Shown in pieces: positions 18,001-21,000 of a stretch of 64,000 nucleotides of DNA. Within the stretch, counting starts at the first letter, position 1. Each line of letters begins with the position of its first letter. The DNA lies in NCBI RefSeq assembly GCF_964194025.1, contig NC_134480.1, positions 39,494,001 through 39,558,000 of the forward strand, in the 5' to 3' direction. Source of the stretch: Convolutriloba macropyga (Eukaryota). Made by a program: the position numbers.

Positions 18001-21000
18001 GCTAGTGGTTTTTTGTTCAGATACGGCGTTTTGACACCCATTTTCTGTTTTTCATTTTTTGATCTATTCTTTTTAGAAATGGTTTTTACAATTCATTCAT
18101 ATTCCGTTTTAGTTCTAGTTTTTTTTGTTTAGTCAATGAAAATTCTTTGAATTGTATGTCAGTATTTGTCCTGCTATGTTTTTCTAATTCGCTTTACCTT
18201 TTGATCGCGTTTTCGTTTTAAGTCACGATTTTCACGTTTGACTACTGACTGACTTCCCTCACTGTTGCAACTGAATGGATTTTAAATTCTTTCAGGCATT
18301 GAATTACGCAATGTGGTGAATATGGTCATTTCAAAATAGCAAAACCAGAAGAGACGGGATAAACCGGTAAAGCCAGGTCATTAAGTCATAGTGCATTAGG
18401 TTACCAAAGTTCAGAGTTTTTGCTAGCTGACATTAGTATTAGGCTTATTATCTTTCAGTTTAGAAGCTGAATTAAATAGTTTTAAAATCCAACTGAAACT
18501 GCACGCCAAATTAGAACACATTTTTATTCTTTTCAATCTCGATGTGCATCGAGTGCCTCAACGGTGGCTATCTTCCGGCAGTCTGCAGGCTATGTTTTGT
18601 TTTTTTTTAATTTTATAATGAACTCCGTTTTCAATTTTTTCAGATATTTATGCTATGCTGTGTCTACTTTCTTCAGTTTAAATCCAACATTTCAACGTAT
18701 CCTGGAAAGATAAGTGTTTTATCTTATTTAAAGCCCATGAAAGTAGCATGTAGAAATATGGAAAAGTGGGTCCCCCACCTGCGCGCCCTCGCACCTACCT
18801 GCAAAACATGTGTAGCAATTGTCTTAGTCTTCCTGGCTGTTCTTATGCTATGTTTTGTAGCACAGCCTTTTCATTTGATTGTTTTTCTGACCATTCGAAT
18901 TTTCTTCCTCAAACAGGATAAACAGGTAAAGCCTGGAGGGCATTTAGTCGCTGATTAGTTTTCTAGAGCTCTAGTAGTCTCCTGTGTGTATAACTCACCA
19001 AACCTGAGAAGACGTAGTCATGCCCCCGCACCTCAATCTTTCACCCCTAACCACGCACGCTAGACCCCATTGAGCCCCCTCTGCTCCAACCCATTTCTTT
19101 CCCGCCACTAATGAACCGTTTTTACTTCTTCTCCATATCTCAGTGAAGCTTAATTTGGTCCCCCTAAGCTCCAATTAGCTAATGAGAAAGCCAACCATTC
19201 GCCAGTCGTCTGAGAGCATTTCGCCCAAAGTTAGTCGGTTATGTTTGCCCATTTTAGATTTGATCACATTGTCGACTATTTCGCCCTATTTGAGATCACT
19301 CTAGTTGAGCTAGTTATATAAAACGTTTTTAAGTTCTCTAAAACGAAGTTTGAAGCAATTATTGTAAACGTGTGTCCTTCTATACCAATTTTTTCTTGAC
19401 CGTTTTTGCGCTTTTGTTCGAGAACATTCTTTCGATTTCACTTTGGACGCACTTTCACATGCTTGACTTTTAAAACAAGCAATTGTAATATGAGAAATTA
19501 CAAAACTCGGATAGCCGAGTGGTGAATGCTTCAGTCCAGCACGCTCTAGGGCGGGGTTTAAACCCCTCCCTGATTGGCCCTGATTGGGAATTTTTGACCC
19601 AATCAACAAATTGAGAAACTTACAGATATTTGAAGAATACGGATATATGCCTTTTTTGAACAGTTATTTCATTGTATCTTGGCAACGGAGATATATCTCA
19701 GATCTGTTAGATAACAGACCAATAACTAAAAATTTAGAAACTCAACTAGACTTCTCGTCGGAGGTCAAATTGATTAAAGCTACAGGTTCTTTTTGTTGTC
19801 TTCTAGACAGTTTAATCTTACATTTAATGTAATGTTCAAATTGTCCAAGGCCTTTGTTCTGTCTTTTTTATTCTGTGCGGGTTTTTTGTCTAGTTTTACA
19901 ATCCACCGATTAGTGTATAAAGTCAGTGATGATGCTTTGGTTGCTAGCATCTTAATACGTTGCTATCATCGATGAGTTATAGACTGACTATAATACGTTG
20001 TTTTATGAGCTTATACGTTGCTTTATACGTTTTTGAATTGAGCATCCGAAAGAGTGTTGTTTTACACCTTTAATATTGGTGCCGCGACCCGGGAACATGT
20101 GTAGTTCCAGGTGTTTAAAGTTTCCCGAAAAGTAACTCCTTGGTATAGTGATTTCGACAAGCTTTGGTAGTTCTACACTCCATTCGAGGATCCTTTCTAC
20201 AGTGTCTTTTGGTAATTCTTCATCCCAGTGCTGCCCGCTGACACGCCAGATGTCCTTTAGTAACAATCGGGCACCAACAGTAAATGGTGCCACTAGGCCG
20301 ATGGGATCAAACACCTTAGACACTAGACTCAATACCAAGCGTTGTGTTAAAGACTTAGTTACTGTACTGGAGGTACCCCGACTCACAACTAGAGTATCAT
20401 TGTTGTGATCCAATTCCAACCAAAGCCGTCCTAGAAAACTTCTACATGGACGATTACTTGGATTCGGTGGAGTCACCTGAGAGGGCTCTGAAAAGATTGA
20501 AGGAGTTGGTGCATCTTCTCCATCTAGGTGGGTTCATGCTTACTAAGTTTGTAAGCAATGTACCAAATCTGGCTGATCGAATTGATGGGTCAACTCAGTC
20601 TACCGAACCAAAAGTAATTGCCTCATCTAAGGAGGATTCTTTGCACGTGCTTTGGTTGAAATGGGATCACAGCAATGATACTCTAGTTGTGAGTCGGGGT
20701 ACCTCCAGTACAGTAACTAAGTCTTTAACACAACGCTTGGTATTGAGTCTAGTGTCTAAGGTGTTTGATCCCATCGGCCTAGTGGCACCATTTACTGTTG
20801 GTGCCCGATTGTTACTAAAGGACATCTGGCGTGTCAGCGGGCAGCACTGGGATGAAGAATTACCAAAAGACACTGTAGAAAGGATCCTCGAATGGAGTGT
20901 AGAACTACCAAAGCTTGTCGAAATCACTATACCAAGGAGTTACTTTTCGGGAAACTTTAAACACCTGGAACTACACATGTTTGGCGATAGTTCCCAAGAG

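What the first reader, a model, noticed from the sequence alone, without database searches (positions are those of the whole stretch)
20077..20981. LTR element whose gag-PR-RT region is replaced by an inverted copy of its own pol: a possible hairpin RNA source
Seen in sequence: directly after the PBS comes a ~333-bp reverse-complement copy of 20649-20981, then forward pol resumes at KAVLENFYMDD. The inner junction bases ccaaagc (20420-20426) fit both the inverted arm and the forward reading frame, which suggests microhomology. The arms are ~99% identical with a ~220-bp loop. Inference: a template switch created this, and LTR-driven transcription would give long dsRNA able to produce siRNAs against the whole BEL/Pao family (analogous to Mu killer in maize).
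Basis: partly seen in the sequence, partly recalled or inferred. Interest (0 to 1): 0.66.

Follow-up and report, generated by a model that had tools for sequence, protein, structure and literature searches.

The report
Rearranged dead BEL/Pao retrotransposon with hairpin
A decayed retrotransposon copy in an acoel-worm-like genome has lost its front half and carries there a flipped 333-base copy of its own polymerase gene, most likely a copying accident made while the element was reverse-transcribed; whether the hairpin RNA it could form silences its relatives is untested.

Summary
Arms 20094-20426 and 20649-20981 are 333 nt long and 330/333 complementary, with a 222-nt spacer. As RNA the region folds at -749.6 kcal/mol, against -267 for shuffles.

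The element is a truncated BEL/Pao LTR retrotransposon in an acoel-like genome. About 1,180-1,250 residues of gag-PR-RT are absent. The remaining pol carries 2 frame changes, 2 stops and 1 deletion.

The left arm is the inverted copy. It starts at the 18th base of the PBS, where plus-strand strong-stop DNA should end. The inner junction overlaps codons (T-K-A) that relatives also have, so a microhomology of about 5-8 nt is plausible. Arm divergence (3/333) matches LTR divergence (1/127).

My best reading is two template switches during plus-strand DNA synthesis, before integration. A later DNA-level rearrangement or an assembly artefact is less likely.

The siRNA idea was not tested. The 5' LTR copy shares only 127 nt with the 3' copy, no target-site duplication was found, and no second copy of the derivative was found. 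Only 17 of 239 relatives are at least 90% identical, so silencing of the whole family is overstated. This is a neat but ordinary kind of object.

The parts
19949..20075 (+). 5' LTR copy: the core shared with the 3' copy. A weak ungapped extension may run back to 19915.
   Evidence: 126/127 identical to 23310-23436. The 34 nt upstream match only 19/34 in register.
20077..20094 (+). Putative primer-binding site, 18 nt, starting TGG. Its last base is also the first base of the left arm.
   Evidence: Read directly. The 18-nt length is inferred from the standard reverse-transcription scheme. tRNA complementarity could not be tested: ARAGORN found 0 tRNA genes in the window.
20094..20426 (-). Left arm: inverted copy of pol segment 20649-20981.
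   Evidence: 330/333 complementary to the right arm. Relatives align here on the - strand. PF05380 is found on the - strand, E 9.5e-17.
20427..20648 (+). Loop, 222 nt: forward pol from just before the RT YxDD motif up to the start of the right arm.
20649..20981 (+). Right arm: the original pol segment, in frame with its flanks. It covers the start of the Pfam PF05380 region.
20427..23010 (+). Pol remnant as one broken gene: RT C-terminal part, PF05380 region, integrase and DUF5641. Against guide P0024 it has 2 frame changes, 2 in-frame stops and 1 deletion of at least 5 residues.
   Evidence: Pfam hits PF05380, PF17921, rve, zf-H2C2 and PF18701. Counts from tblastn against the guides.
23011..23309 (+). 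AT-rich non-coding stretch between the pol stop and the shared LTR core. It is either a 3' untranslated region or U3 sequence that the 5' LTR copy lacks.
   Evidence: GC is 0.33 here, against 0.44-0.54 in pol. It has no counterpart upstream of 19949.
23310..23436 (+). 3' LTR copy (shared core).
   Evidence: The only AATAAA in 19901-23500 starts at 23433, across the LTR end and the flank.

Best explanation
This is a single, dead, 5'-deleted copy of a BEL/Pao LTR retrotransposon in an acoel-like genome. Its inverted duplication was most likely made during reverse transcription, before integration.

Inferred steps:
1. Plus-strand strong-stop DNA (LTR plus the 18-nt PBS copy) did not make the normal PBS-to-PBS transfer.
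2. Its 3' end was extended on a plus-sense template covering 20981 back to 20649. This wrote the inverted arm.
3. The new 3' end then paired, through about 5-8 nt of microhomology, with minus-strand DNA just before 20427, and synthesis went on normally to the 3' LTR.
4. If minus-strand synthesis had stalled near that point, both strands could be completed on each other. That would also explain the loss of gag-PR-RT.

Shown: the anatomy, the junction positions, the family, and the decay of pol. Inferred: the order of events and the strands involved.

The locus would give a 333-bp hairpin RNA if transcribed. I see no evidence that it is transcribed, or that it was kept for that purpose.
For: - The outer junction falls at 20094, the 18th base of a TGG-starting PBS that begins one base after the LTR homology ends. 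That is the expected 3' end of plus-strand strong-stop DNA (scheme as in PMC12789967, passages read; the 18-nt figure is recalled).
- At the inner junction the window reads T-K-A. Of 122 relatives that reach it, 48 read A-K-A and 23 read T-K-A. The K column is K in 88 of 109 relatives, and the A column is A in 83 of 119. The last bases of the arm therefore also fit the parental forward sequence.
- The arms differ at 3/333 and the LTR cores at 1/127, so they are of similar age.
- Both arms share a rare state: W where 200 of 216 relatives have G and only 2 have W. The copy therefore came from this same element lineage.
- At the 3 mismatch sites the commonest state among relatives is kept by the right arm at 2 sites and by the left arm at 1. 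Both arms have changed since the duplication, which argues against an artefact made from a single molecule.
- Inversions and microhomology at breakpoints are documented in defective proviruses: 1.9% have inversions, and 4-10 bp of microhomology was found at 58 of 185 deletion junctions (PMC13427564, passages).
Against: - No intact DNA copy of the family was available. The parental bases after the PBS and before 20427 are therefore unknown, and the microhomology rests on protein-level comparison only.
- The complementarity of the PBS to a host tRNA was not tested.
- No target-site duplication was found (24 short matches among 6,000 boundary combinations, about 17 expected by chance, none at a sensible boundary).
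- The 5' LTR copy shares only 127 nt with the 3' copy, and the repeat does not end in the usual CA. The insertion is therefore not a textbook one.
- The three mismatches cluster within 24 nt of the inner junction (about 4e-4 if positions were uniform). The model does not predict this specifically.
- The authors of the HTLV-1c study favour a post-integration origin for most of their defective proviruses.
Confidence: 0.6

Rival explanations
1. Post-integration DNA rearrangement. A break or replication error inside an already inserted element deleted PBS-to-RT and filled the gap by fold-back, microhomology-mediated synthesis (FoSTeS/MMBIR-like, or end joining).
For: Microhomology at the junction and substitutions clustered near it (3 within 24 nt) are also typical of break-induced, error-prone repair (recalled). 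Post-integration origin is favoured for most defective HTLV-1 proviruses (PMC13427564, passages). The 5' LTR is itself incomplete and there is no TSD, so the locus has seen other DNA-level damage.
Against: The left breakpoint would fall on the last base of an 18-nt PBS by coincidence. For a random breakpoint in about 3.6 kb of missing sequence that is roughly 1 in 1,000 within +/-1 nt (my estimate). The arms are no younger than the LTR pair (3/333 against 1/127).
Confidence: 0.2
2. One reading: the locus is transcribed from its LTR, the hairpin is diced, and the siRNAs silence the family in trans, like Mu killer.
For: The stem is 333 bp with a 309-bp perfect stretch, which gives 289 possible 21-mers per strand. 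There is no AATAAA between the 5' LTR and 23433. The family is abundant: 255 proteins with E<=1e-10 among the longer ones and 340 with E<=1e-5 among those of similar length. TE- and pararetrovirus-derived inverted repeats do yield siRNAs in other organisms (PMC9868043, passages; search listings).
Against: No expression or small-RNA data could be consulted. The 5' LTR copy shares only 127 nt with the 3' copy and may lack U3. The element is intergenic, about 8 kb after the aldehyde dehydrogenase gene, so read-through is not obvious. Only 17 of 239 relatives are at least 90% identical in protein here. It is a single copy, with no sign of selection.
Confidence: 0.15
3. Assembly or amplification artefact: a chimeric molecule or a mis-join created the inverted arm.
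For: Inverted chimeras are a known product of whole-genome amplification and of some long-read libraries (recalled). The window comes from a scaffolded assembly with N runs at 46244-46555 and 62112-62134. Reads could not be seen.
Against: Two junctions would be needed, not one. The arms differ at 3 sites, with derived states on both arms. The structure is 25 kb from the nearest gap. The outer junction sits on a biologically meaningful base.
Confidence: 0.07
4. A fragment of a second family copy was inserted or recombined in inverted orientation.
For: The family is abundant in this genome type.
Against: The arms are 99.1% identical in DNA and share a state seen in only 2 of 216 relatives. The best non-self relative over the arm is 92-95% identical in protein. 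There is no other copy of the family in the window. The fragment would have to land exactly between the PBS and the deletion edge.
Confidence: 0.03

Closest known systems
Defective retroviral proviruses with internal inversions or deletions and microhomology at the breakpoints (for example the HTLV-1c proviral landscape, PMC13427564)
   Same: An LTR-flanked reverse-transcribed element with a large 5'-internal deletion, an inverted internal segment, and short homology at a junction.
   Different: This is a BEL/Pao retrotransposon fixed in an invertebrate assembly, not a somatic provirus. The outer junction sits exactly at the PBS end. The inverted piece duplicates retained sequence, so a hairpin results.
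Mu killer of maize (Slotkin et al. 2005; seen only as a citation and one sentence in PMC9868043; details recalled)
   Same: A partly deleted transposon copy carrying an inverted duplication of its own sequence, which could give a hairpin transcript homologous to active relatives.
   Different: Mu killer derives from a DNA transposon and arose at the DNA level. Its transcription, siRNAs and heritable silencing are demonstrated. None of these is shown here.
Rearranged endogenous plant pararetroviruses with inverted-repeat conformations that give hairpin transcripts and siRNAs (PMC9868043)
   Same: Integrated reverse-transcribing elements with micro-scale inverted rearrangements, proposed as hairpin RNA sources.
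   Different: Those are in plants and have mapped siRNA peaks. Here the host is an animal and there are no small-RNA data.
Animal hairpin-RNA (hpRNA) endo-siRNA loci, for example in Drosophila (PMC5392987, PMC10317233; abstracts in search listings only)
   Same: A long inverted repeat with a loop, a possible Dicer substrate.
   Different: Those loci are expressed and conserved, and they target genes or selfish loci. This is a single decayed TE copy of unknown expression.

Membership tests
BEL/Pao LTR retrotransposon | Pol with Pao-type domains in the order RT, RNase H region, integrase | tested here: met
   PF05380 (E 1.8e-23 and 3.3e-09), Integrase_H2C2, rve, zf-H2C2 and DUF5641, in that order on the + strand. 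Relatives are up to 95% identical and carry PF05380, PF00078, PF03564 and PF17921. rve scored 23.0 bits against a cut-off of 32.6, and zf-H2C2 scored 21.1 against 25, so both are below their curated cut-offs.
BEL/Pao LTR retrotransposon | gag, protease and the N-terminal part of RT are present | tested here: not met
   Full-length relatives P0085, P0101 and P0106 align only from about residue 1,180-1,250 onward. Nothing aligns upstream of the junction. This fits a deleted member, not a non-member.
BEL/Pao LTR retrotransposon | Direct long terminal repeats | tested here: met
   19949-20075 against 23310-23436, 126/127 identical. The pair is unusually short, and the 5' boundary is unresolved.
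BEL/Pao LTR retrotransposon | PBS complementary to a host tRNA 3' end, next to the 5' LTR | tested here: inconclusive
   A TGG-starting stretch begins at 20077, one base after the LTR. No tRNA gene in the window was available for comparison.
BEL/Pao LTR retrotransposon | Target-site duplication and TG...CA termini | tested here: not met
   No TSD of 4-6 nt at any sensible boundary pair. The repeat ends ...TTAATA, 9 nt after an ACA. The termini are damaged, atypical, or not made by integrase.
Hairpin-RNA / Mu killer-like silencer locus | Long inverted repeat homologous to a transposon family | tested here: met
Hairpin-RNA / Mu killer-like silencer locus | Transcription through both arms | not testable with these tools
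   No expression data were available. The promoter content of the 127-nt 5' LTR copy is unknown.
Hairpin-RNA / Mu killer-like silencer locus | Dicer-sized small RNAs from both arms, and silencing of relatives in trans | not testable with these tools
   No small-RNA data were available. Only 17 of 239 relatives are at least 90% identical in protein over this region.
Rearrangement made during reverse transcription | Breakpoint at a landmark of reverse transcription | tested here: met
   The arm starts at base 18 of the putative PBS. That this is the end of strong-stop DNA is an inference.
Rearrangement made during reverse transcription | The same junctions occur in independent copies, that is, the structure was transposed | tested here: inconclusive
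   Junction-spanning 6-mers were found in 0 of 239 held relatives, and none of the 120 listed of 340 hits covers a junction. However, the collection does not list the window's own junction ORF either.

The most novel reading that the evidence does not exclude
An aberrant plus-strand transfer produced, in one step, a non-autonomous BEL/Pao derivative that is transcribed from its remnant LTR. It would act as a natural hairpin 'killer' locus, supplying siRNAs against the closest, recently amplified subfamily in an acoel. That would be the first retrotransposon-born hpRNA silencer described in Xenacoelomorpha. A further unexcluded twist is that the aberrant cDNA entered the chromosome without integrase: there is no TSD, the right end is unprocessed, and the left LTR is eroded.
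Probability: 0.08. Interest if true: 0.6.

Novelty: new member of a known kind. Interest (0 to 1): 0.35.

Why it matters
If the origin proposed here is right, the copy is a fossil of a failed plus-strand transfer. It would show that reverse-transcription errors alone can turn a retrotransposon into a hairpin-forming locus, the raw material from which hosts are thought to recruit RNAi triggers against transposons. Acoel genomes are 53-70% repeats, mostly LTR elements (PMC9911081 and PMC6451197, passages), and I found little in print on how they are silenced. As it stands, it is one decayed copy with no expression evidence, so the practical weight is small.

Tried and rejected
- Autointegration was rejected. 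It would join an LTR tip to internal sequence, whereas here the junction lies after the PBS.
- A nested second copy was rejected (see rivals).
- TSD search over 80 x 25 boundary pairs and 3 lengths: nothing usable.
- tRNA search and Rfam at gathering thresholds over the whole window: 0 hits each. The PBS could therefore not be matched to a tRNA.
- Other copies of the element or its LTR in the window: none by blastn or by tblastn with P0009, P0024 and P0101.
- Other copies of the derivative: the junction-spanning ORF 20006-20476(-) gave 340 hits, of which 120 were listed. The best is the window's own forward ORF, P0121. None crosses a junction.
- Lauermann and Boeke 1997 (PMC1170264) is not held. 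The 18-nt strong-stop detail is therefore recalled.
- An LTR start near 23016 is possible (a 5-nt terminal inverted match right after the pol stop) but too weak to assert.
Family DNA outside the window therefore stayed unchecked, as did supplements of the papers.
- Literature on small RNAs or RNAi in acoels: the searches returned nothing specific about endo-siRNAs in acoels.

Full report
**1. Observation**

The repeat finder reports one inverted repeat of at least 40 nt in 18000-30000. Its arms are 20094-20426 and 20649-20981, 333 nt each, 99% complementary, with 222 nt between them. A direct count gives 3 mismatches in 333. Complementarity does not continue past either end: 5 of 20 positions match outward and 11 of 40 inward. 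As RNA, 20060-21010 folds into one long stem at -749.6 kcal/mol. Twenty dinucleotide shuffles average -267.3 +/- 8.6, so z = -56. The finding's coordinates and numbers are correct.

**2. What the element is**

- Pfam places PF05380 ('Pao retrotransposon peptidase') on the + strand in 20446-21244 and on the - strand in 20006-20476. Integrase_H2C2, rve, zf-H2C2 and DUF5641 lie in 21877-23007. rve and zf-H2C2 score below their curated cut-offs.
- A direct repeat of 127 nt flanks everything: 19949-20075 and 23310-23436, 126/127 identical.
- A TGG-starting PBS-like stretch begins at 20077.
- The 219-residue translation of 20422-21078 finds 255 longer proteins with E<=1e-10, the best 95% identical. 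Nearly all come from unnamed ENA records. The only named one is from the acoel Convolutriloba macropyga, at 64%.

Host context:
- The window also carries host genes on the + strand: aldehyde dehydrogenase pieces, LRR1, Nramp pieces, and a single-ORF tyrosine aminotransferase.
- The aminotransferase is 74% identical to that of Symsagittifera roscoffensis and 59% to that of Convolutriloba macropyga. The window is therefore from an acoel-like animal, not from a human.
- Host exons were searched one by one.
- The two N runs were left alone.

**3. What is missing and what is broken**

Full-length relatives P0085, P0101 and P0106 (1,830-1,966 residues, 52-56% identical) align to the + strand only from about residue 1,180-1,250 onward. 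Their gag, protease and most of RT have no counterpart here. Against the closest long guide, P0024 (80% identical), the pol remnant 20427-23010 shows 2 frame changes, 2 in-frame stops and 1 deletion of at least 5 residues. The copy is dead in several independent ways.

**4. Which arm is the copy**

Relatives align on the + strand without interruption through the loop and the right arm. They align on the - strand over 20093-20425. The right arm is therefore original pol sequence in place, and the left arm is the inverted duplicate.

Both arms share W at a column where 200 of 216 relatives have G and only 2 have W (P0138 and P0139). The duplicate therefore came from this element lineage and not from a distant family member.

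At the three mismatch columns, the commonest states among relatives are K (210), W (204) and N (112). The right arm keeps the first two and the left arm keeps the third. Both arms have changed since the duplication.

**5. The junctions**

*Inner junction.* In the forward frame the window reads T-K-A-V-L-E-N-F across 20419-20442, and the arm ends inside the A codon. Among 122 relatives that reach this point, the three residues before the V are A-K-A in 48 and T-K-A in 23. The T-K-A group includes the close relatives P0009 and P0015. The support is at protein level only, because no family DNA was available.

*Outer junction.* LTR homology ends at 20075 and TGG starts at 20077. An 18-nt PBS would end at 20094, which is the first base of the arm. 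In the standard scheme (PMC12789967, passages), plus-strand strong-stop DNA ends with the copy of the tRNA's 3' 18 nt; that figure is recalled. The inverted arm thus begins exactly where strong-stop DNA should end.

**6. Mechanism (inference)**

The left arm, read left to right, is the complement of plus-sense sequence read from 20981 down to 20649. A plus strand growing from the strong-stop 3' end must therefore have copied a plus-sense template: a displaced plus-strand segment or a surviving RNA fragment. It then switched, by the microhomology, to minus-strand DNA at the point before 20427 and continued normally.

If the minus strand had stalled near that point, the two 3' ends could prime on each other and complete a two-LTR molecule lacking gag-PR-RT. 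This mimics the normal PBS-mediated transfer.

The mirror-image model is a minus strand that snaps back on itself over a 222-nt loop. It uses the same microhomology, but it must then land by chance on the base next to the PBS.

The arms (3/333) and the LTR cores (1/127) are equally diverged, which is compatible with a rearrangement as old as the insertion.

**7. What does not fit neatly**

- The three arm mismatches all lie within 24 nt of the loop side, and the other 309 nt are identical. For uniform positions the chance is about 4e-4. Error-prone synthesis next to a switch, or imperfect pairing at the switch, could explain this. So could break repair.
- The 5' LTR copy shares only 127 nt with the 3' copy. 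The next 34 nt match 19/34 in register.
- The 299 AT-rich bases between the pol stop and the 3' core (GC 0.33) have no 5' counterpart. Either the LTR is very short, or the 5' LTR lacks much of U3.
- No target-site duplication was found.
- The repeat runs 9 nt past an ACA, up to one base before the PBS. An insertion without normal end processing is not excluded.

**8. Function**

Any transcript that starts in the 5' LTR copy and reaches 20981 would contain both arms. The only AATAAA in 19901-23500 is at 23433, and one ATTAAA is at 21988. The perfect part of the stem is 309 bp.

Whether the remnant LTR has a promoter is unknown. The element lies between genes, about 8 kb beyond the last aldehyde dehydrogenase piece. 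No expression or small-RNA data could be consulted.

Over this region only 3 of 239 relatives are at least 95% identical in protein, and 14 more are 90-95%. Perfect 21-nt matches would therefore be limited to a close subfamily.

Hairpin RNA sources derived from transposons or endogenous pararetroviruses are established elsewhere (PMC9868043, passages; listings). The searches returned nothing specific on endo-siRNAs in acoels.

**9. Other copies of the derivative**

- The window holds no other copy of the family.
- The ORF that crosses both junctions, 20006-20476 on the - strand, finds 340 proteins, of which 120 are listed. The best is the window's own forward ORF, P0121. None covers a junction.
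- Junction 6-mers occur in 0 of 239 held relatives.
- This is weak evidence. The collection does not list the window's own junction ORF. No eukaryotic genome DNA could be searched.

**10. Verdict**

The template-switch origin is supported and can be stated more sharply as an aberrant plus-strand transfer. The silencing role remains a hypothesis and its reach was overstated.

The object belongs to known kinds: defective reverse-transcribed elements with inversions (1.9% of HTLV-1c proviruses; PMC13427564, passages) and transposon-derived hairpin loci. It is a tidy example in an under-studied animal group, but it is not a new category.

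Noticed in passing
window 19505-19580: A tRNA-like stretch with box A- and box B-like motifs lies about 350 nt upstream of the element. ARAGORN and Rfam do not call it. It may be a SINE head or a decayed tRNA gene.
   Followed up: partly
window 24493-26356: A roughly 1.22-kb unit is duplicated in tandem, with segments 82-97% identical (families D1 and D5-D9), just downstream of the element.
   Followed up: no
window 23926-24144: Three tandem copies of a 73-nt AT-rich unit, 81-100% identical (family D4). 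A long (TG)n tract lies at about 27880-27950 (D2).
   Followed up: no
window 1012-3686: A run of + strand ORFs lies here. One of them (2077-2535) has a marginal RVT_1 hit: 29.0 bits against a cut-off of 29.6. This is a second, different decayed retroelement upstream of the aldehyde dehydrogenase pieces.
   Followed up: no
window 54713-55987: The tyrosine aminotransferase is a single uninterrupted 425-residue ORF. It is 97% identical to an unnamed ENA protein and 74% to that of Symsagittifera roscoffensis. It appears to be intronless.
   Followed up: partly
window 19888-19900: Thirteen bases just upstream of the 5' LTR copy match the LTR's own end region at 11/13. This is possibly chance, possibly a trace of an older LTR end.
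   Followed up: no
window 12000-20000: There is a strongly negative AT skew (T-rich + strand, -0.17 to -0.24) over about 8 kb between the aldehyde dehydrogenase gene and the element.
   Followed up: no
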